In this document: positions 1,279 through 63,800 of the stretch, in pieces
Layout: the number at the start of each line of letters is the position of its first letter
Numbering within the stretch: position 1 is the first letter of the stretch
NCBI GenBank assembly: GCA_951406725.2
Contig: OX597821.1
Location: 104,408,001 to 104,472,000 of the forward strand
Source: Octopus vulgaris
Taxonomy: Eukaryota
Length of the DNA: 64,000 bases
Direction of reading: 5' to 3'
Made by a program: the position numbers and the translations under genes
Notes under the pieces: model-generated
What the model was told of the DNA's origin: nothing
The model's database searches: none
Seen by the model: the letters and a program-made list of their open reading frames with translations, nothing else

Positions 1279-1557
1279 AAGAAAGAAAGAAAAGAATCGC
1301 ATAATCTCTCTTTTACTCTTTTTTTTTGTTTCAGTCAATTGACTGAGGCCATGGTGGAGCACCGCCTTTAGTCGAGTAAATCAACCCCAGGACTTATTCT
1401 TTGTAAGCCTAGTACTTATTCTATCGGTCTCTTTTGCCGAACCGGAACCGCTAAGTTACGGGAGCGTAAACACACAAGCATCGGTTGTCAAGCGATGTTG
1501 GGGGGACAAACACAGACACACAAACAAAGACGAACTTTCAAATATATATATATAATA

Positions 1558-2195
1558 TAGAATAAAATTTTTCGAAAAAAATTTTATCAACGGCCAGCAT
1601 ATTAAAAAATACCTTTAAAGGTTAAATTTATAAACAACTTATAAACGAGGGCAAAAGAAAAAAAATCTTTGGCATTAGAATTTCTTTTTCTTTTGCCCTT
1701 GTTTACACGTTGTTTATATATTTAACCTTTAAAGGTATTAGTTAATATGCTTGCCATTGATAAAATTTCTTTGAAAAATGTTATCCTACATTAGATGTAA
1801 ATTTAATAGTGTTCACTTCCGGACTCTCTCACTATATGAGAGTTTTCAGTTCAAATCGCACGTGCCTCGAATTGGCTGCTGAATTTCTATTTTGGATATA
1901 TTTGGGGTACTTATTTGTGCTCATAACTTAGTGTTTGCTTCTTTCATGGGTATAAGTAAGTATTTCATTCATTTCTTTGCCGCATTTATCACTGACGAAG
2001 AGAAGGTCTTATGAATTAACTCTGAAATCGGTTCCGATGTGATAATAACGAATTTTTTCAGAAATTTCTGTCGGCTTTCTTCAAGACGCGTGCTTATAGT
2101 GATGAATTATATGGTTATGGACGATGTGTCTAGTTTCAGCATATTTGGAATTAGAATTTTTTTCTTTTGCACTTGTTTATAAGTTGTATATATAT
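1558..2195 (+). mobile_element. Non-coding Penelope-pLTR/retrozyme-like repeat with inverted 5' arm and hammerhead motif
   Basis: Homologous to 38705-39241. Terminal direct redundancy 1675-1720 vs 2150-2195; inverted arm 1558-1666 vs 1680-1788; TA-rich flanks. Confidence 0.65.
1986..2045 (+). ncRNA. Type I hammerhead ribozyme motif (cleavage position is G, so probably inactive)
   Basis: TTATCA-CTGACGA-AGAG..CTCT-GAAA-TCGG TT CCGA-T-G-TGATAA. Confidence 0.65.
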
Positions 2196-2386
2196 ATATA
2201 TATATATATATATGAATACAACGGGCTTCTTTCAGTTTCCGTCTAACAAATCTACTCACAAGACTTTGGTCGGCCGAGACTATAGTAGAAGACACTTGCC
2301 CAAGGTGCTACCCTGTGGGATTGAACCCGGAACCATGTGGTTCGTAAGCAAGCTACTTAACTCACGGCCACTCCTACGTCTATGAT

Positions 2387-34851: not shown

Positions 34852-35136
34852 GGGGCGCAATGGCTCAATAATCAGGGCAGCGGCCTCGCGGTTGTAGGAT
34901 CGCAGTTTCTATTGCCAGACCGGGCGGTATGAGTGTTTATTGAGCGAAAACACCTAAAGCTCCACGAGGCTCCGTCAGGGGTGCGGGTGGCGATCCCTGC
35001 CGTACCCTTTCGCCACAGTTTTCTGTCACTGTTTCTTGTGTTGGCCAGCGGAGTGGCGTCATTTGAAGGCTAAAACAATGCGAAGCGCATTGTGACCCGT
35101 GACGTGTAGCAACATCTGATAGCCTGGTCGGTCACG

Positions 35137-35141
<5 letters not shown>
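34852..35141 (+). mobile_element. SINE family C, tail type 1
   Basis: tRNA-like head plus core tgtttattgagcgaaaacacctaaagctccacgaggctccg, shared with the copies at 41548 and 56899. Confidence 0.75.
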
Positions 35142-35184
<43 letters not shown>

Positions 35185-37843
35185 AAGACACAAACATATA
35201 ATGTTCGTCCTTCGGTTCGAAGATGACCAACTGACATGATCTGATGGAACTGCCGCCATGAGACGGGAGGTGGCTGGTGAGGCCAATCCGGGCAAGGAAG
35301 CCCCTCCCACAGGTGGGGCAGAAGTGGGTAGGGGCAGTGCTACTGGTGCAGGCGGCTCTGACTTTACGCATCTGACGTTTCTGCTCCGCTGACCGAATCC
35401 GTCCCTCCTCGGCTGTCCCTGCTACCACGGTGATTGCGCTGCGCCAGGATGAGCGGTTGGCAGCAAGTGTCTCCCAGGTCTCTGTTCCGATGGAGAAGTC
35501 TTTGAGAGAGACCTTGAGACTATCCTTGTAGCGCTTTTTCTGCCCTCCGACTTTGCGCCTGCCCTGGCCGAGTTCACCGTAGAAGAGCTGTTTTGGGATG
35601 CGAGTGTCGGACATGCGGGAGACGTGGCCCGCCCATCTCAGCTGGGCCTTGCGCATGATTGTGATGGTGCTAGGGAGATCTGCCTGCTTCAGAACTTCCG
35701 TGTCTGGGACTTTGTCCTGCCAGCGGATGTGAAGGAGATTCCGAAGACACCTGAGATGGAAGTGGTTTATCTGGCGCTCGTGCCTTCGGTAAGCAGTCCA
35801 CGTCTCGCAGCCGTATAGTAGAGTGGTAAGCACGACTGCCCGGTAGACTTTCAGCTTGGTGTTGAGGCTGATTCCTCTCCGCTCCCAGACTTTCTTTCGC
35901 AGTCTCCCAAACGCGCTGCTTGCCTTGGAGATTCTATTGATGGTTTCAGCATCTATGTTGGCATTGCAGGAGAGAGTGCTGCCCAGGTAGGTGAAGTTTT
36001 CCACCACTCGTAAGATCCGTCCGTTCACCCTTATCTGAGGCTCATGGTATTGTTTGCCGGGGGCTGGCTGAAACATCACTTCGGTTTTCTTTGCACTGAT
36101 GGTGAGACCGAAGTTGTCACAGGCTGATGAGAACCTGTCCATCTCGAGCTGCATCTCCTGCTCATCGATTGCATTAAGGGCGCAGTCGTCAGCAAAGAGA
36201 AAGTCTCTGACGACTGTCTCCCTCACCTTTGTGACAGCCTGCAATCTCCTGGAGTTGAAAAGTTTCCCGTCTGTCCTGTACTTGATGTTGATACCGGACT
36301 TGCAGTCCCTAAAGGCGTCGGACATCATTGCCGAGAACATGATGCTGAACAGTGTTAGGGCCAGGACACAGCCCTGCCTGACTCCGTTGGTCACCTGGAA
36401 GGCTTCAGATGAGTCGCCGTCCTCAAGGATTCTGGCTGTCATTCCGTCGTGGAACTGGCGGACAATTGCAATAAATTTTCTGGGGCAACCAAATTTTCCC
36501 ATGACCTTCCATAGTCCCTCCCGACTGACTGTATCAAAGGCCTTGGTGAGGTCAACAAAGGTGATGCAGAGGTCAAGGTGCTGCTCCATGCATTTCTCCT
36601 GGAGCTGGCGGGCGGCGAATATCATGTCAGTGGTCCCTCGACCCGCACGGAAGCCACACTGGCTCTCAGGGAGAAGGCCTTGCTCCAAGTGTTCCAGAAG
36701 GCGGTCAAGCAGGACCCGGGCCAGGATCTTGCCTGCTATGGACAAGAGGGAAATACCTCGGTGGTTGTCGCAGGACTGCCGATCTCCTTTCCGCTTATAA
36801 ATGTGGACGATTGTTGCATCCCGGAAATCTTGAGGGAGTTGTTCCCTGTCCCACATCGACTGGAACAGGCTGGTGAGCTGACTGATCATGGTGGGGCCGC
36901 CCGACTTGAACACCTCTGCAGGGATGGCGTCAGAGCCTGGAGCTTTGCCGGTGGACATTTTTTTGATGGCTCTGCTCACTTCCCCGACTGCAGGGGGAAC
37001 AGCCAACTCGTGGTTTGTCGGCACCTGGGGGAGTCGTGCGATGGCTTCCTCGTTGATCTGGGCTGGTCGGTTGAGCACGATGTTGAAGTGCTCCGCCCAT
37101 CTCTCCAGGATCAGTCTCTTGTTAGTCAGGAGTGAGGTTCCATCTGAGCTGAGCAGGGGGGTTGATCCAAAGGAGAACTGCGGTCCATAGACAGCTTTCA
37201 GCGCCTTGTAGAATTTCTTGGTGTCGTGTTTGTCTGCGTATCCCTGAATCTCATCCGCCTTGGCGCTTAACCATGCGTCTTGCATGAGGCGGAGTTTAGC
37301 CTGGACTGTGCTGCGAATGTTGTTGAAAGCGGCCTTCTTTGCCGTGCAGGTGGTGTCATTTTGGTGAGCCCGCAGCAGACGGCGTTTCTCTTCCAGGAGC
37401 TTTTGGATTTCCTGGTCGTTTTCGTCGAACCAGTCCTGGTGTTTCCTCGTAATTTGGCCCAGAGTTTCAAGGGCGATGGAATGAACCGTGTCCCTGAATG
37501 ATTCCCACTGCTCATCGATGCTGGACTGGTCACTCCGAATGTCCAACAGCTTACTGTCCATACGTGACTGGAGATCTTGTGCAGTCAGCTGGTTCCTTAA
37601 TTTCGTGATGTTAAGCTTCCTCGTCACTTTCTGACCCTGTGGTCTTCTCTTAGGTCGGATGTAGAAATCCATCCTGGAGATGATGAGGCGATGGTCCGTC
37701 CAGCAGTCAGCTCCGCACATGGCTTTGACCAGTCTCACGTCCCGCTTGTCTTTCGCCCTGACGATGACGTAATCTATCAGATGCCAGTGTTTGGAGCGTG
37801 GATGCATCCATGATGTCTTGTTGCGTGTTGGCAGACGGAACAA
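35132..37843 (-). CDS. APE endonuclease (C-terminal part), reverse transcriptase and C2H2-like tail of an RTE LINE; the frame stays open upstream to about 37996
   Basis: WMHPRSKHWHLIDYV, TDHRL, KAPGSDAIPAE, RGISLLS, QCGFR, FVDLTKAFD, GVRQGC, LFADD, YLGS, LRWAGHV, CPTC..H. No internal stops in 903 aa. Confidence 0.93.
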
Positions 37844-37996
37844 GGTGTTGGCGATGGTAAGATCATGAGAGGCACACGCACGCAGGAGGAGCTGTCCGTT
37901 GCTGTTGCACTTTCCGATTCCTTGCTTTCCCAGTACGCGATGCCAGGCTTGGTGGTCAGTCCCGACACGGGCGTTAAAATCCCCACGGAGGATGAG
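35200..37996 (-). mobile_element. RTE-clade LINE, 5'-truncated within the endonuclease
   Basis: Open frame from LILRGDFNARVG; visibly GC-richer than the flanks; 3' stem-loop tggtcatcttcg-aac-cgaaggac. Confidence 0.95.
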
Positions 37997-38091
37997 AAGG
38001 GCGGAGGAAAAAAAGCAGTATAGAGTGTCAGATCAAAAAGGTGAAGATAAACTTATTTGGAAATGGATGCGTCGTGTTAAATTAAATAATA

Positions 38092-38552: not shown

Positions 38553-38626
<74 letters not shown>

Positions 38627-38646
38627 ATACATACTTATTCATACAC

Positions 38647-38704
<58 letters not shown>

Positions 38705-38707
<3 letters not shown>

Positions 38708-39241
38708 CGGTTAAATTTGCCCTCATTTATGAATTGTTTATAAATTTAACCGTTAAAGGTATTTTTTAATATGCTGGCCATTGATAAAATTTTTTTCGAG
38801 AAAATATTTTTTTTTCGAAAAGAATTTTATCCTCACATTTGATATAAATTTAAGCGTTCACTTCCGGACTAACTAACTCACTCTGTGAGAGCCTCAGTTC
38901 AAATCGCACGTGCCTCGAATGGGCTGAAGTATTTCTATTTTGGATGTATTTGGGGTACTTAGTTGTGCTCATGACTTAGTATTTGCTTCTTGCATGGGTA
39001 TGAGTAAGTATCTCATTTATTTCTTTTGCCACATGTATCACTGACGAAGAGAGGGCTCTTAGTAGCTAACTCTGAAATCGGTCCGATATGGTAATAATGG
39101 AATTTTTTAGAAACTTCTGTCAGCCTTTTTTCGAGTAGCGTGCGTATTGTGAAAAAAATTATATGGTTAATGGGCAATATGTCCAATTTTTCGGCATATT
39201 TGACATTGAAATTTTTTTTCCTTTGCTCTCATTTATGAATT
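38705..39241 (+). mobile_element. Second copy of the hammerhead-bearing repeat (about 500 bp)
   Basis: Aligns with 1690-2190. Terminal redundancy tttgc(c/t)ctcatttatgaatt at 38716 and 39222; 14-nt inverted piece at the 5' end; TA flanks. Confidence 0.7.
39036..39093 (+). ncRNA. Type I hammerhead ribozyme motif with an intact core
   Basis: TATCA-CTGACGA-AGAG..CTCT-GAAA-TCGG T CCGA-T-A-TGGTA; predicted cleavage after 39088. Confidence 0.72.
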
Positions 39242-39759
39242 ATATATATATATACGCGCATATACGGGTACAGTACTTCATCAACGGTGCAAATAATTTG
39301 ATATACGTAAACAAACGAGGCAAAACGAGTGAAATACGTCAACAACGAGAAAAAAGTAATGGAAAACAGTACAAGTTGACCGTGAGAAATGACCCTTCAT
39401 CAGTTGTCAGCTGCCTATGTACTCCTCATTTTGAGCATTCAACTAGAATATTGAGTTTGCAAAGACAATAGCTTCCATAAATCCTAAAATAAATTTAGAT
39501 TTTATGGACGGTCAATTTTGGGAACAAAAAATGACAATAGAGACAGACATACAAGGAAACCGAACGAAAACAAACGTGGAGGCTCGTTGCACCAGAACTA
39601 GAAGAAAATAATGAACACTGAGAGAATATCTTTTTTCTTCTTTTTTTGAAAAGAGAAAAGATAGAAGAGTTAGAGAAAAACACGACCGCTCGTTTAAAAG
39701 TTCAGGAAAAGAAAGATGGTCACATGAGGAAAACAAAGACGGACGATGGTCACCTGCGA

Positions 39760-49950: not shown

Positions 49951-51288
<1,338 letters not shown>

Positions 51289-54200
51289 CAAGACAATGTT
51301 GATGACAAGACAAGAAAGATGAACATATTATAACTACCTCCCAAGAAACAGGATAAAATGTTTAAGGCCCATATGGGCTTTTAAAAAATGCATCACCAGA
51401 GGGAAAAAAAAATTGCCACGATCGAAGCTAGATTCGACAGTGGAGAACGAGCTATGGATCTCTTCACAACGCCTTTTGAATACGAGAACCTAATGATGAT
51501 CCCTACATATCTTGGTCGTAGAGTCACAAAAATAAAAGTCAAAGATATGCCCCATGAGATGCAAATAAAATGGCTTGTGTCTGCCATATGTTATGATATC
51601 GAGGAGTTAATCCACACTTTGGAAATCGCTGTCCTGGACTAACAAAATTGGATTAGTCAGTATTGAAATGATTCGACTTCTTACAAAACTGGCAGACGGT
51701 CCAAATTTGCATGTGGCGTCGAAGGTAGAAAGACACATTGCTAAGTTTGTGGTAGCAAATCACACCTAAAAATCAATTGCCATTAGTACAGCAACAACAA
51801 CAGGAAAAACAAAGATAACACGATCAAGAAGAAGAACAACAACTGTAAAGGAAAAAGAGAAAAACAAAAGGACTCATACCCCACCCCCAAAACCCATACA
51901 CCACATCCCAACTGTCACCAACTAGCACGAACACCAACAACAAAATCAGCACACTCAGAAATAGACCCCAATTTCTGATTCCTCAGACATGTCCTCAGAG
52001 AAAAACGACACAGAGGATTGGCAAGTGGCCGGGAGGGATGAGGAGAAAAGTGAATAAAAATAGACAAGTAAACCAACAAAACATGGAGGTTTACCACTCC
52101 CGAAACCAAAACACCCGCAGAAGCATTAACACAAACATACAAACATCAAATGGCCCCACAATGTCGACAAGCTATAAGCACTAACAGTCCAAACCTAATG
52201 GAATACATTAGGTCAAACACCAACATAAGAGTAAACTATACCAAAACAAATAATTACCCACACACAACAGCCACGCACAACACATTAAAATCTTATATAT
52301 AACACAGAACAGACACAATGCACTGAAATCTCTCTACCTGGATGCAGGAGGAGAGATTTCAAAAATACCTCTGTAAAAAACTGCAAATAACGTCTGGGAA
52401 AATTCTGTAATATGAAGGACAAACAAATTTCAGACAGTAAGTGACTCTCTCTCTCTCTCATTTTCTTGCGTTTTCCCTTTTGGTGTAAAACACAACTTTC
52501 GATAGGAACATGCGCAGAATAGGTTGTATAAATATACGTGACTTGGGGTCGCCTTGGAAACAAGGCTACTTGTTAACTGACATCAAGTCACAGAATGTGC
52601 ATATCATAACCATCAGTGAGACCAGATTCTACACACTCCAGCACATGTTCGGCGGACATTTCAACATTTATGTTTCTCCGTGTCTGCCGAGAATCGGTGG
52701 AGGTGGCACCGCGGTGCTTCTTCGGAAGAATCTGGACCTCAAGGTAAAGACAATTTTCCTTGACCTACAAGGTAGGTTGGTTGACTTAGATGTCGATAGC
52801 AGTAATAGGTGTGCTTTTTGGCAGATAACAGTTTATGCATCGCCCTTAACAAGTCGGCAAGGTTTCTTTCGACGTCTAGAGGTTTTCCTTGGAACGTCTC
52901 GACCTTTACTTTTAGTGGGTGGTTGGAACGCTACCTTGGACACGCATCGAGACTACGGGGCACAGATAGTAATAGGAGGGGATGTAAATGCCGCAAATGC
53001 CTGCCCAGACGTTTCCAATTCTTTGAAAGGTTCCGAGTGGATCACCCGAGTGTGTCAATGAGGACATGGAGAAACCGCATCGGTTCGTCCAGATCGTATT
53101 TAGATACAGTATACTGTAGGATAGTGGATAAGGATAGTGGAGTTTGTCCGCAATTCCATATAGTCAGCTGCACAGACCACAGATTTATGATTTGTACACT
53201 TGACTTAGTTAAGAGCCATAGGCAGGGTCCCATTTACTGGAAGCTGAACGCATCGTTCACGGCATGCTAAGCTTTCAGGGACCGCATTAGCATATTAGTT
53301 AAGAGAGAATTGACGGGTACTGTCGTCAACAATAGACGGTGGCATGCCGTAAAAAGAGCAATTACAGCAGAATCGGTTAGGCCGAAATAGAATAGAGGGA
53401 GAACTAATAAAGAAATTAGAAGAGTCACTTAGAACTGGCATCGGGTCCAACGTATTGGTAACGAGGTTAGCCCTCGACTAACACTTCAACACCAAACACG
53501 AATGATGCGTTGTCAGAACTAGGATGTGCGCTCTGAGAAACGAAAGAGTTGGAGCCGCCCGGGAGGCCCAAGTGCCGGAGGCGCAACGAGGAAACAAATC
53601 CACCATTAGGTTTCTGAGAGATGAATAAGGGCGCGAATTACTCGAGCCCGAAACGATGTGTAAGGCATTTAAACAACACTTTGCTCGACTGTTCGGGACA
53701 ACTGGTGGGTCAGAACGCAGGATGGACTTTAGTGCCTGCCTGCATGGCTTGTCACGACTCTCAAGAAGAGTGGCGGATTGTTGTGCAAAACCCATCACAG
53801 CCTTGGACGTACAGAATGCGATGGCATGCTGCGAGGGAGACAAGTCGCCAGGCATGGATGGTATACCCTACGAACTATATTGTCATATGCCAGACTTGTG
53901 TGAAGGCGTCTTGACAGCGGTCTACTGCAACTGGCAGTAAAACGGGAGTATCCCCGTTTCTGCGAAGCGAGGGGCAGTAGCACTGCTAGAAAACGATCCA
54001 AACAAGAAGAATGTCATAGATAACCCTAACCCATCACTCTGCTCATCGCAGGTTTTAATATTTTGGCCAAGGTGTTAGCCGAGATGTTGACGCTAGTCAT
54101 CGAGAAACTGTACGACAAGGCGCAAACATGCGCCGTTCCGGGCAGGAGCATCTATGCACTACAATATAGACAGGATAGTTAAGGAACTTAGCATGGGTGG

Positions 54201-56098
54201 GGCGCTGAACATGTTGGATGAATGGAAAAATTTTGACAGGGAAGACCACCGATACTTGGAGGCTGTCCTTAGTGCGGCTGGTTGCGGTCCTGTGTTCTAC
54301 GGTTGGATCGCTACCTTATACAGCGGTATCCCCTCGGTAGTTCGCGTAAATGGTCATGTGTCGAAACCAGTAAACATCACCCATCAAGTATGCCCCCTCT
54401 CGTCGTTTCTGTACGTATTGACTCTAGAGCGACTACTACGGAAGTTGACGACGCTGAAGGGCATCCAGCGAAAACTGAGATGTGGGAAGAGCCTCTCAGT
54501 ATATATGGGCAGTGTCCCCACGATAGTGTCAAGACACAAGCATATCGACCTCGTCGGCGAGACACTAAAAGAATATGAAGCGGAGACGGGAGCGAAAATT
54601 AACCGGGAAAAGTCAGTGGGCTTGCGGTTCGGCACATGGGGAAGCAAGCCCATGCCGTCCAACAGCGTCTCCAACGTGGGACGCTGGACCGACGGACCGG
54701 TGAATTTGCTTGGGGCCTGGTTCGTTCCGGACATACAAATGGAGAAGACCTGGGACGAGATAGCAAGTAGGGTGGCCACTCTCAAACAGCAATGGGCCGA
54801 GAGGAAGCTATCCCTAAAAGGTTGAGCAGAGGTGGCGAACGCGTATATCACATTCATCATCGATTACCGTCTGACTGCGGTGCCTTGTTCTGTCGCTAGC
54901 TTCACCAAACTGGAACGCATACTCTTCCGCTTGTTGTGGAAGAGAAGCGTTCCGATGGTGATCCATTTGCTGTCAACACCCGCGAAAGGGAGGGCTGGGC
55001 ATGCCGTGGTTGAAGATGCGCAGACATGCGCTGAGACTGCGACGTCTCCGGCCTTTTAGAGACAGGTGTGGTCGCTGTTTGTGATAGATATATACCAAAC
55101 AGAGACCAAGGCTAGGCGAATGGCACCGCGTGTGTCGCGTTGCTCTCAAGCAACTCTGCCATCCAGGACCGAAATTAGGCGACTTCAAAAGCGTTCTATA
55201 CAAGATCCACAAAGGCTTTCTGTAGAGGATTAGTGGAGAGAAGGTGCGACGACGTTCTCGGAGAGAATCTGGGCGTCGACGAGGAACACCTGACCTGCCT
55301 GTTCAGGACAAGTTTCGGGCCGGGACCTATGGGCAATCACCAGACCTGGCAGCGCTATCGGCAAGCATTTCCCGTTCGGGATAAGCATTACAGGTACGGT
55401 TCAAGACACACCGAAACGACTTGCCCGAGATGCGGTCAGAGCGACGAAAACCTTTTTACACGAAGTTGTGCAGTTTCCAACCATTTCGGACCTATGGACT
55501 TATGCCGAACGTCAGCTGTCACGTGTGGGATGAATTCTGTTGTCGGCCGAGTCTATCGTGAAAATTTCTCCACCACCTTAACAGGGAAGGCAAAGCAGTT
55601 TTCATCGTACTGGTGGCCATGGTGAAAGAAAGTGTATGGTGGACTCGGCCGAAAGTTTTATAGACAAACACTTTCCTCTCTGGTCAATCGATCATCAACT
55701 TTTTCAAGTACCATTTGAAAAGGAAACTGAGAATAGAGGGGCAGATTTTGTCTCATGAAAATTCAATAAAACATGGGTGAATGTAGCAAATATGGTACCC
55801 GTGCATGACGAAACCACTTTGAGCATGATCCTATAAATCGAAGAGAGAGAGTGCACTTGGCACTGAAGTGTTTTTCCTCACCCTGCCTGAGGTTACCGTA
55901 GTCTTTTTCGTAGGTTTTTCTTTCCACGGATAACGTAATCATTTTTTTTAACGTTTTTTGCTGTGTTCTGTGATAACCGATCCTTTTTGATGGTTGTGTA
56001 TTTTCTATTAAATATGTGTTTTCTTCTTTCGAAAAGAAAAGCACTACATTGTATTTTGTCCCCTCTGTGTTAGCATCTGTGTGGCTGATAAAGAAAGG
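51289..56098 (+). mobile_element. Tx1/L1-clade LINE copy 2, more decayed (ORF1 remnant 51289-52400, ORF2 52510-55835, 3' UTR to 56098)
   Basis: MIPTYLGRRVTKIKV (ORF1); MRRIGCINIRDLG..TISETR..VYASP..VGGWNATL..SYLD..TDHR (APE); KSPGMDGIPYE, NFDREDH (RT). Many stops and frameshifts; ends gctgataaagaaagg before (TATC)n. Confidence 0.88.
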
Positions 56099-60872: not shown

Positions 60873-63800
60873 GCGGTTGGTCGTTCTGGATGTCGACGGC
60901 AGCAATGGGTGCGCTTTTAGACTCGTATCAGTCTACGCACCGCCTTTAACAGGTCGGCCGGATTTCTTTCGACGTCTAGAAGTATTCATGGGAACGTCTC
61001 GTCCTTTACTTTTAGTGGGGGATTGGAATGCTACCTTGGACATGCATCTAGACTATGCGAGGAGAGACAATAACAGAAGGGGATGCAAATGCCTCAGAGA
61101 CCTGCTCAGACGTTTCCAACTGTCTGACAGATAACGACTCAACCACCAAAATGCACCAACGTGGACATGGAGCAACCGCAGTGGGTCATCGAGGTCGTAT
61201 CTAGATAGGATACTGTGTAGGACAGTAGACAGGGATAACTTAGGATGTCCATAATTCCACACAGTCAGCTACACGGATCACAAATTCGTGACGTGTACGC
61301 TAGACTTAGATAAGACACATAGACAGGGTCCTGGTTACGGGAAACTGAACGCATCTTTCCCGTCCAGACAGGTTTTCAGAGACAGAATCAATACGTTAGT
61401 AAAATGGGCTTTAACTGGAGCCATTGTCAACAACAAATGGTGGTTCGCCCTCAAGAGAGCAGTGAAAGCGGAAGCAATTAGATATAGCAAGACACTAGCT
61501 AGAAATAGAGTAGAGGGTGAGTTAGTTAAGAAGTTAGAAGAGGCAAGAAGAAGTGGCATCACATCCGACGTTTTAGCGGCGAGGTTGGCCATTGACCAAC
61601 ACTTCAACGTCAAACACGAAGGGTGTACTGTCAGGGCTAGGATGCGTGCTCTAAGGATGGAAGGTGTTGGAGCCGCGAGGGAGGCCCGGGTGGCGGAGGC
61701 GCAACAGGGCAACAAAGCCACCATTCGGTCTCTGGTAGATGGACAAGGGCGCGAATTGCTCGAGCCCAGCAAGATGTGCGAGACATTTCAGCGGCACTTT
61801 GCCCGACTGTACGGGACGAGTGGCGAGCGTGAACGCAGGGTGGACTTCAGTGCCTTCCTGCAAAGCCTACCACGACTCTCAGCAAGAGAGGCAGAGTGCT
61901 GCGAAGGTGCAATCACGGCGGCGGATGTGCGGGACGCGATGGCAGAATGCTCGAGAGACAAATCGCCGGGTTTGGATGGTCTGCCCTACGAGTTTTACAA
62001 CTGTATGCCAGACTTGTTTGGAGACGTCTTGGCAGCGGTATACTGCAACTGGCAGCAAAACGGGAGCATACCCGGTTTTGTGAGTCGAGGAGACGTAACG
62101 CTGCTGCAGAAAGATCCAGAACTGAAAATTTTAACAAAGGTGTTAGCCAAGAGGTTGGTGCTTGTCATCGAGAAACTGATCGACAACGCACAAACGTGCG
62201 CCGTGCTGGACCGGAGCATCCATGACAACCTCCATCTGATGCGCTACATCATAGACAGAGTAGTTAAGGAACTTGGCATGGGTGGGGCCCTGATCAACTT
62301 GGATCAATCGAAAGCCTTCGATAGGGTAGACCATCGATACTTGGAGGCAGTCCTGAGAGCGGCTGGTTTCGGTCCCGTCTTCCGCGGCTGGATAGCTGCC
62401 TTGTACAGAGGCATCCGTTCGGTAATTCGCGTGAATGGACATCTATCGAGAACTTTCGACATTGCACGTTCGGTCCGTCAGGGATGCCCCCTCTCGTCGC
62501 TTCTATACGTATTGACTCTTGAGCCACTACTGCGGAAGCTGGCGACTCTGAGGGGCATCCCGCGAGAATTGGGATGCGGGACGAGCGTGTCTGCATACGC
62601 GGACGACGTCACCGTCATAGTGTCAAGCTACGAGCACATCGAGCTGGTCGGCGAGACACTGAAAGACTACGAAGCGGTGACAGGAGCAAAAATCAACCGG
62701 GAAAAGTCAGTGGGCTTGCGGCTCGGCACCTGGAGAAGCAAGCCCATGCCGTCCACCAGTATCTCCGTCGTGGGATGCTTGACAGACGGCCCGGTTGAGT
62801 TGCTCGGGGTCTGGTTCGGTCCGGACCACTAAATGACGAAGAACTGGAACGAGATAACGAGAAGGGTGGTCACTCTCGCCCGGCAATGGGCCGAGAGGAA
62901 GCTGTCCCTAGAAGGTCGGGCGGAGGTGGCGAACACGTACATCGCGTCAATCATCTACTACCACCTGACCGTCGTACCTTGTCCCGAAGCTACCATCACC
63001 AAACTAGAACTCATTCTCTTTCGCTTCTTGTGGAAAGGATGCGTCCCGATGCTCAGGCGATCTATTTGCTGTCAACACCCGTTAAAAGGAGGGCTGGGCA
63101 TGCCATGGTTGATGATGCGCAAACACGCGCTGAGACTGCGACATCTCCGGCTTTATGTAGGACGGTGAACAGGTGTAGTCACCGTTTCTGAGGCACGCGT
63201 TCCCGCAGCTCGTCTCCATGACCGAACTGCAGTCGTTGATCAAAAAGAGGCCGAGGAAGGGCGAATGGCACCGCGAGTGTTGCATTGCTTTCAAGCAACT
63301 CTGCCGTCCTGGGTCGACCTTGAGTAACTTCAACACAACCAAAGCATTCTATAGGGGATTAGTGGAGGGGAGGTACGACGACGATATAGGGGCAAACCTG
63401 GGCATCGACTGGAATACTTGACCCGCCCGTTTGAAACGACTTTCGGGCCGGGACCTATGGAAAACTTTCAGAGATCCCTGGCCTGGCAGTGCTACCGAGA
63501 AGCGCTACCCGTTCGGGATAAGCTCTATAGGCATGGCTCGAGAAACGCGGGGCCGAACTGCCCGTACTGCGGGCAGAGCGACGAAACCGCTCTGCACGCA
63601 CTAGTGCAGTGTCCAACAATCTCCGACCTGTGGGCTTATGTCGAACGACTGCTGTCACGTTTGGGACGTGTCGGTTTATCAGCCGAGTCTATCGTTAATA
63701 TCGTCACGCCTCCTTCCTTCAAACGGGAAGGAAGAGCTATTTTTATTATACTTGTGGCTATGGCGAAAGAATGTATCTGGTGGACGCGCCTGAAAGGATT

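What the first reader, a model, noticed from the sequence alone, without database searches (positions are those of the whole stretch)
38705..39241. Monomer of about 500 bp with an intact hammerhead and terminal redundancy, present twice
Both copies (1675-2195 and 38716-39241) are one unit plus a short direct repeat of their own start, and lie in TA tracts. Stem I pairing is kept despite substitution (TTATCA/TGATAA vs TATCA/TGGTA), while the stem II loop varies. The 39 kb copy has a cleavable UA and the 2 kb copy has UG. A slightly over-unit-length insert is expected from reverse transcription around a circular or tandem RNA (inference).
Basis: partly seen in the sequence, partly recalled or inferred. 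Interest (0 to 1): 0.72.

Follow-up and report, generated by a model that had tools for sequence, protein, structure and literature searches.

The report
Hammerhead retrozyme with Penelope-type insertion ends
These are two ageing copies of a protein-less ~500-base jumping repeat with a predicted self-cutting RNA (a known class, animal retrozymes), and their insertions into TA repeats end at two fixed points, one per arm, which likely means a Penelope-type enzyme copies one RNA from both ends of a DNA cut.

Summary
Both copies are real (79% identical). They belong to a dispersed non-coding family with 469-506-bp units; 1,429 hammerhead-core matches lie in the genome. The type I hammerhead covaries between subfamilies. 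UA stands in 153 of 155 intact cores, so the 2-kb copy's UG is likely decay. Terminal redundancy is not general: 14 of 191 arms exceed one unit. Insertions end at two fixed sites 107 nt apart, joined to (TA)n, with variable 5' truncation. 109 of 186 loci have an inverted second arm; of the 82 with both ends cleanly classed, 81 pair one end of each type. This is the Penelope-like (PLE) footprint, and an intact PLE family in this genome shows it too. 102 of 191 arms cross the cleavage site, so the template is a circle or multimer, not a cut linear monomer copied once; a circle is favoured but not shown. No partner sharing sequence was found among 70 GIY-YIG loci. Verdict: new member of a known kind. 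This scan noted similar elements on other DNA of this genome.

The parts
38557..38704 (.). (TATC)n then (TA)n tract, left flank / target microsatellite of the 39-kb insertion
38705..38718 (-). 14-bp inverted piece (unit positions 27-40) joined to the TA tract; a vestigial second arm with an atypical end, neither A nor B
   Evidence: reverse complement of 38742-38755
38716..39221 (+). 506-bp non-coding unit (39-kb subfamily); numbering 1-506 is arbitrary, the unit is circularly permutable
   Evidence: best genomic copies 94-97% identical
38735..38842 (+). Segment between the two fixed 3' ends: end A (unit ~20) and end B (unit ~127); a 107-nt 'tail', read through in this first pass
38783..38831 (+). 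Long A/U palindromic hairpin inside the A-B tail (predicted)
38951..39013 (+). Second long predicted hairpin (unit 236-298); 5' breaks of arms cluster at unit 265-286
39036..39093 (+). Type I hammerhead: stem I 39036-40/39089-93, core 39041-47, stem II 39048-51/39070-73, GAAA 39074-77, near-palindromic stem III 39078-86, UA 39087-88; predicted cut after 39088
39222..39241 (+). 20-bp repeat of the unit start, ending at fixed end A
   Evidence: 19 of 20; the exact A-end junction motif has 138 matches in the genome, reversed control 0
39242..39254 (.). (TA)n joined to end A
1543..1553 (.). TA tract joined to the outer end of the inverted arm of the 2-kb insertion
1554..1665 (-).
   Evidence: L141
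1665..2186 (+). Forward arm of the 2-kb insertion: 474-bp unit (1692-2165) with about 48 bp of redundancy, ending at A
1986..2045 (+). Hammerhead of the 2-kb copy with UG (2038-2039) at the cut site; likely a mutation after insertion
   Evidence: UG in 2 of 155 intact cores
2187..2213 (.). (TA)n joined to end A of the 2-kb insertion

Best explanation
The two copies are insertions of a non-coding, hammerhead-bearing repeat (a non-LTR retrozyme) that is likely pasted into (TA)n by a Penelope-like retrotransposon acting in trans. Shown: a fixed pair of 3' ends (A, B) 107 nt apart and joined to TA; variable 5' ends; frequent inverted second arms with one A end and one B end; arms that run through the cut site and past one unit; passes of one insertion that share rare variants. 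Inferred: the PLE endonuclease cuts both strands of a TA tract, each 3' end primes reverse transcription at one of the two internal sites of the same RNA, both cDNAs stop at variable points and are joined back to back or to the flank. Inferred with less support (about 0.55): the RNA is usually a circle made after hammerhead cleavage of a more-than-unit transcript. Both window copies are then cDNAs that ran one lap from site A and stopped 20-50 nt later.
For: Fixed ends: 53 of 59 loci picked without regard to ends have at least one end at A or B joined to a TA-type repeat. Exact junction motifs give 138 (A) and 194 (B) genome matches, reversed controls 0. Two-armed loci: 109 of 186; 81 A+B, 0 A+A, 1 B+B (a compound locus), 1 ambiguous, 26 with an end unclassified; binomial P about 2e-23 for 81 of 82. 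A third subfamily gives 8 of 8 unlike pairs among those classed, from 30 loci. PLE hallmarks in print: 5' truncation, partial tandems, an inverted 5' copy, a tail at one end only and (TA)n targets (PMC8557442, PMC3846280; passages), and two internal RT start sites with both strands cut and extended (PMC11167929, parts 1-2 of 4). An intact RT + GIY-YIG family (781 aa) has two ends about 30 nt apart in (TA)n, with unlike ends in both of its two-armed loci (L126, L128). Shared near-private variants: 21 between arms (2.7 expected) and 12 between successive passes (1.7 expected). Hammerhead: 4 of 13 pairs change on both sides across three subfamilies, in all three stems, 98.9% of cells paired (7 distinct rows, related sequences). 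Unit folding z=-6.1.
Against: No autonomous element sharing sequence with the unit was found among 70 GIY-YIG loci, a subset of 150 scored and 6,136 candidates. The tail is 107 nt, against 30-40 nt in published PLEs. The 39-kb copy's short inverted piece ends at neither A nor B. Most differences between passes are unshared (115 against 12 shared), as decay predicts, so the single-template signal is thin. L026 alternates short and long units, which a monomer circle cannot give. The predicted lowest-energy fold of the 39-kb hammerhead is inactive. Cleavage, circles and expression were not observed. In the one reconstituted PLE, hammerhead cleavage was not needed for insertion (PMC11167929).
Confidence: 0.82

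Rival explanations
1. Same PLE machinery, but the template is an uncut multimeric read-through transcript of a genomic tandem array; the hammerhead plays no part in copying and no circle is used.
For: No stops at the cut site. L026 alternates deleted and full units, and L008 and L017 have a 20-nt deletion in one pass only. Unprocessed RNA was the main substrate in vitro for an anole PLE (PMC11167929). The 39-kb core may misfold.
Against: Successive passes share near-private variants 7 times more often than independent copies would. Arms that finish a lap show a post hoc excess of stops. The core, UA and covarying stems are kept across subfamilies 20-30% apart. Only 2 of the loci read hold more than two units, so long source arrays seem rare in this sample.
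Confidence: 0.35
2. The copies are only truncated terminal repeats (pLTR fragments) of an autonomous PLE whose ORF was not sampled.
For: PLE insertions are mostly 5'-truncated, and the search for a partner covered only 70 loci.
Against: In all three subfamilies the sequence upstream of the unit start is the end of the same unit, not an ORF; arms of 1.5-3.7 units hold no coding insert. No shared non-unit upstream sequence appeared among the 30 loci compared (output partly cut).
Confidence: 0.08
3. A MITE or other DNA transposon with terminal inverted repeats, or a locally amplified satellite.
For: Two-armed copies look like inverted repeats; insertions lie in TA.
Against: Arm lengths run from about 20 to more than 900 nt, outer ends are unlike, 77 of 186 loci have one arm, and copies are dispersed over many contigs.
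Confidence: 0.02

Closest known systems
Metazoan non-LTR retrozymes (Cervera and de la Pena 2020, PMC7229834, passages read; Li, Clavereau and Pollet, bioRxiv 10.64898/2026.07.22.740005, parts 1-3 of 5 read)
   Same: Non-coding unit of a few hundred bp, low GC, one type I hammerhead per unit, head-to-tail units, proposed non-autonomous dependence on PLEs.
   Different: Unit 469-506 bp, above the 170-400-nt RNAs of the 2020 paper but inside the 51-972-bp range of the 2026 preprint. Most copies are shorter than one unit and two-armed rather than clean multimers. In the parts read, neither paper maps two fixed ends or inverted arms. Circles and cleavage were shown there and not tested here.
EN+ Penelope-like elements, (TA)n-targeting types (PMC8557442 and PMC3846280, passages; PMC11167929, parts 1-2 of 4)
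   Same: 5' truncation, partial tandems, inverted 5' copy, a tail on one arm only, AT-rich or (TA)n targets, a hammerhead upstream of two 3' ends.
   Different: No ORF. Tail 107 nt instead of 30-40 nt. The hammerhead has a long stem-loop II rather than the minimal PLE form. No sequence link to the PLE families examined.
Putative non-autonomous Chlamys PLEs such as MRC1 (PMC8557442, passage)
   Same: Non-autonomous PLE derivatives with head-to-tail copies.
   Different: Those resemble their autonomous families at the 3' end, and that clade lacks canonical hammerheads; here a hammerhead is present and no partner similarity was found.

Membership tests
Non-LTR retrozyme | Type I hammerhead with conserved core and UH in each unit | tested here: met
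   155 of 186 passes over the motif have an intact anchored core, 153 with UA; 140 pass all stem tests; covariation
Non-LTR retrozyme | Non-coding unit of a few hundred bp in head-to-tail arrangement, no LTR | tested here: met
   Units 506, 474 and 469 bp; arms run unit into unit, up to about 3.7 units; no ORF of 200 aa or more overlaps either window copy
Non-LTR retrozyme | [quoted passage not shown] | tested here: not met
   Each window copy has one hammerhead; met by family members such as L026 and L153
Non-LTR retrozyme | Self-cleavage in vitro | not testable with these tools
   Only folding energies; the active-type fold is 2.7-7.1 kcal/mol above the minimum in three copies
Non-LTR retrozyme | Expressed as linear and circular unit-length RNA | not testable with these tools
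   Only assembled contigs were on offer; no holder on record as RNA
Penelope-like element (insertion signature) | Fixed 3' end with optional tail, variable 5' truncation | tested here: met
   53 of 59 end-unbiased loci have an A or B end; 5' ends spread round the unit
Penelope-like element (insertion signature) | Inverted 5' copy, tail on one arm only | tested here: met
   109 of 186 loci two-armed; 81 of 82 cleanly classed pairs are A+B
Penelope-like element (insertion signature) | Tail of 30-40 bp | tested here: not met
   107 nt in the 39-kb subfamily
Penelope-like element (autonomous) | ORF with RT and GIY-YIG endonuclease | tested here: not met
   None in the unit or its arms; so not filed as an autonomous PLE
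Non-autonomous derivative of a named PLE family | Terminal repeat homologous to an autonomous element | tested here: inconclusive
   No similarity in 70 GIY-YIG loci apart from one adjacent independent insertion (L102/L122); alignment z from -0.4 to 2.5 over 9 comparisons; most candidates not read
DNA transposon / MITE | Fixed, equal terminal inverted repeats | tested here: not met
   Unlike outer ends, variable arm lengths, 77 one-armed loci
DNA transposon / MITE | Target-site duplication | not tested
   Not readable inside (TA)n tracts; no search made

The most novel reading that the evidence does not exclude
Each insertion is written by a PLE dimer whose two RT subunits are held at two fixed sites, 107 nt apart on either side of a long hairpin, on one hammerhead-made RNA circle; each is primed by one strand of a cut TA tract and tends to stall soon after a full lap, when it meets its own cDNA. 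The family would then be a genomic record of both the PLE double-strand integration step and circle-templated retrozyme mobilisation, and would supply a ready 500-nt substrate to test them.
Probability: 0.4. Interest if true: 0.65.

Novelty: new member of a known kind. Interest (0 to 1): 0.4.

Why it matters
The class is known, and so is the proposed link to Penelope-like elements. What this family adds is a countable footprint: one end of each type per two-armed insertion, shared template variants on both arms, and read-through of the ribozyme site. The 2026 preprint says the mobilisation mechanism of these elements remains to be worked out, and the 2021 PLE paper calls the origin of inverted and tailed ends undefined. 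A 500-nt substrate with two start sites 107 nt apart makes the two-start model and the circle-versus-multimer question easy to test in the published in vitro PLE assay. The two window copies are ordinary, partly decayed members.

Tried and rejected
Rfam: no match at gathering score in the window and no hammerhead family at E<=5 over 38600-39400; this is not evidence against the motif. Sequencing runs: no RNA holder listed; only contigs could be laid, and they show no start, end or circle. A loose-end motif, tried as a possible junction to an autonomous element, has no match in G000. Partner search: 70 GIY-YIG loci of several families, none carrying the unit as its terminal repeat. A cut linear monomer copied once as template: rejected, 102 of 191 arms cross the site and stops are not enriched there; template jumping between cut monomers is not excluded. 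A-to-I editing fixed in copies: raw A>G exceeds T>C 3.4-fold, but this rests on a few polymorphic or badly aligned sites; per site, without sites above 8%, P=0.10, 5' G is not depleted, and shared variants are 11 A>G to 11 T>C: inconclusive. Special conservation of the A-B tail: 87% between subfamilies, no higher than unit 138-310: not supported. Look-up of earlier notes by sequence returned nothing. Literature searches run; none listed a paper on this family by title, and supplements were not seen, so a Repbase or Dfam entry cannot be excluded.

Full report
Observation. The window holds two related copies, 79% identical over 543 columns. The 39-kb copy is a 506-bp unit (38716-39221) followed by a 20-bp repeat of its start and a TA tract; on its left a 14-bp inverted piece joins it to another TA tract. 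The 2-kb copy has a forward arm at about 1665-2186 (474-bp unit plus about 48 bp) and an inverted arm at about 1554-1665, each ending in TA. Each copy has one type I hammerhead; a strict descriptor finds these 2 hits in the window and none in 100 simulated windows. Rfam does not report them.

Family. A search of the own genome gave 3,072 candidates, of which 40 were scored; the best are 94-97% identical to the 39-kb copy. A degenerate hammerhead pattern gives 1,429 matches, reversed control 0; this counts cores, not insertions. I read three subfamilies with units of 506, 474 and 469 bp. For the end map I used 200 loci: 30 best full-unit hits, 30 hits to an internal segment of the 2-kb copy, and 140 picked by exact 3'-junction motifs. 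14 were duplicates and were dropped, leaving 186. The motif-picked sets lean to young copies of the 39-kb subfamily on the first contigs listed.

Hammerhead. Of 186 passes over the motif, 155 keep an anchored core; 153 of these have UA and 2 have UG, and 140 pass all stem tests. The UG of the 2-kb copy is therefore most likely a mutation after insertion. Across 9 hand-picked sequences (7 distinct) of the three subfamilies, 4 of 13 pairs change on both sides, in all three stems; 98.9% of cells pair, against 33-48% when partners are slid. Because these are related sequences, this amounts to about four events. The unit folds far better than shuffles (z=-6.1 linear; circular -7.1 on the plus and -3.0 on the minus strand), partly owing to a long palindrome. 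Against activity: the predicted minimum-energy fold pairs the core, and the active-type fold costs 7.1, 5.8 and 2.7 kcal/mol in the three copies tested. Such energies leave out tertiary contacts, so this is a caution and not a verdict.

Ends. Copies end at two fixed sites, A (unit about 20) and B (about 127), joined to TA-type repeats. Of 59 loci chosen without regard to ends, 53 have at least one such end. The exact junction motifs match 138 and 194 times, controls 0. 5' ends are scattered round the unit. 109 of 186 loci have an inverted second arm: 81 are A+B, none A+A, 1 B+B (compound locus L014), 1 ambiguous, and 26 have an end that the script could not class. By eye many of those 26 are variant B ends paired with A, and one locus scored as one-armed (L235) may carry a tiny second B arm. 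The third subfamily gives 8 unlike pairs of 8 classed among 30 loci.

Length. In the end-picked sets 191 arms have medians of 198 nt (A) and 290 nt (B); 14 exceed one unit and 1 lies at 507-560 nt. Lengths are of the outer aligned segment, so they are lower bounds. Terminal redundancy is thus the exception. 102 of 191 arms cross the predicted cut site, and stops are not enriched there (4 against 3.4 within 3 nt). A cut linear monomer copied once cannot give this. A post hoc hazard test, prompted by both window copies being just over one unit, found 24 stops in the 110 nt after a full lap against 11.1 expected (P=6e-4): 14 against 4.2 in the 2-kb subfamily, 6 against 2.8 in full-unit hits, 4 against 4.2 in the end-picked sets. 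The baseline comes from another subfamily, the 2-kb set includes the query copy itself, and arms with unmapped ends such as L153 were left out, so this is a hint.

Template. The two arms of one insertion differ by 3.3% and successive passes by 3.1%, against 4.3% between insertions. Near-private variants are shared 21 times between arms (2.7 expected; 70 pairs) and 12 times between passes (1.7 expected; 37 pairs), with 166 and 115 unshared. One RNA, or one homogeneous source, fed each insertion, and decay followed. A monomer circle explains this simply. L026 does not fit one: its units alternate with and without a 28-nt deletion, which needs a two-unit circle or array. L008 and L017 lack 20 nt in one pass, between direct repeats, which slippage can explain. 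An editing signature was sought and is inconclusive.

Machinery. The genome holds RT + GIY-YIG elements, many with an intact 781-aa frame; the cysteine motif before the endonuclease fits the Neptune type as described in PMC8557442 (passage), but no tree was built. That family ends at two sites about 30 nt apart in (TA)n, and its two two-armed loci have unlike ends: the same footprint. None of 70 GIY-YIG loci carries our unit as its terminal repeat; one has an independent insertion beside it. The partner is not identified.

Comparison with print. PMC7229834 (passages) defines animal non-LTR retrozymes and shows cleavage and circles in coral, mussel and axolotl. bioRxiv 10.64898/2026.07.22.740005 (parts 1-3 of 5) argues that they are non-autonomous PLE derivatives, from co-occurrence and terminal-repeat similarity in vertebrates; 1 of its 9 constructs cleaved. 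PMC8557442 and PMC3846280 (passages) describe truncation, inverted copies, (TA)n targets and a 30-40-bp tail on one arm. PMC11167929 (parts 1-2 of 4) shows an anole PLE cutting and extending both strands, starting at two internal sites that bound the tail, without needing hammerhead cleavage. The element works like a PLE cargo and meets the sequence tests for a non-LTR retrozyme; the biochemical tests could not be run. Four literature searches listed no paper on this family by title; supplements and repeat databases were not seen.

Earlier notes of this scan, read after my reading was set, describe ~360- and ~490-bp hammerhead repeats in this genome with the same two-armed footprint. They are unchecked AI notes and not independent support; whether the ~490-bp units are this family was not established (one search found no look-alike).

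Verdict. Real, and a new member of a known kind. Class and PLE-type insertion about 0.82; circle as the usual template about 0.55; interest 0.4.

Noticed in passing
window 35135-38032 (-), 54097-54822 (+), 61255-62829 (+), 50470-51330 (+): Open frames with RVT_1 or zf-RVT matches (966, 242, 525, 287 aa); probably LINE-type retrotransposons, with no sign of a link to the finding.
   Followed up: partly
unit positions 265-286 (window about 38980-39001): 5' breaks cluster here (21 stops, about 16 per 1000 nt at risk against about 4 overall; 9 of 191 at 278-279), on the 3' side of a long hairpin at a 6-bp palindrome of the family-typical sequence. Fold-back joining, an RT pause or a transcription start could explain it.
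   Followed up: no
L026:721-2604: About 3.7 units with alternating 28-nt-deleted and full units: a two-unit period within one insertion.
   Followed up: partly
two-armed loci such as L181, L245, L205, L247: In 8 of 96 simple two-armed insertions both arms break within 3 nt of the same unit position, giving a clean palindromic junction.
   Followed up: no
L124:244-5490 and related loci L121-L136: Young PLE family (97-99% identical copies) with a 479-aa upstream frame of no known family overlapping the 781-aa RT/GIY-YIG frame, a ~4.7-kb unit and a ~30-nt tail.
   Followed up: partly
L122:5534-5991: A third-subfamily insertion sits in the TA tract at the 3' end of a PLE copy: shared target, not shared sequence.
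   Followed up: yes
window 38859-38915: ETS-like and E-box-like motifs just downstream of end B, kept in all three subfamilies; possibly an internal promoter (motif names recalled, not tested).
   Followed up: no
L014, L038, L076, L166: Compound loci where a second insertion, in L014 and L038 apparently of another subfamily, abuts the first in the same TA tract.
   Followed up: no
runs X1, X3, X15, X17: Contigs of runs labelled as three organisms (A, B, D) cover the unit, so the family may be shared by related species; coded labels, not checked further.
   Followed up: no
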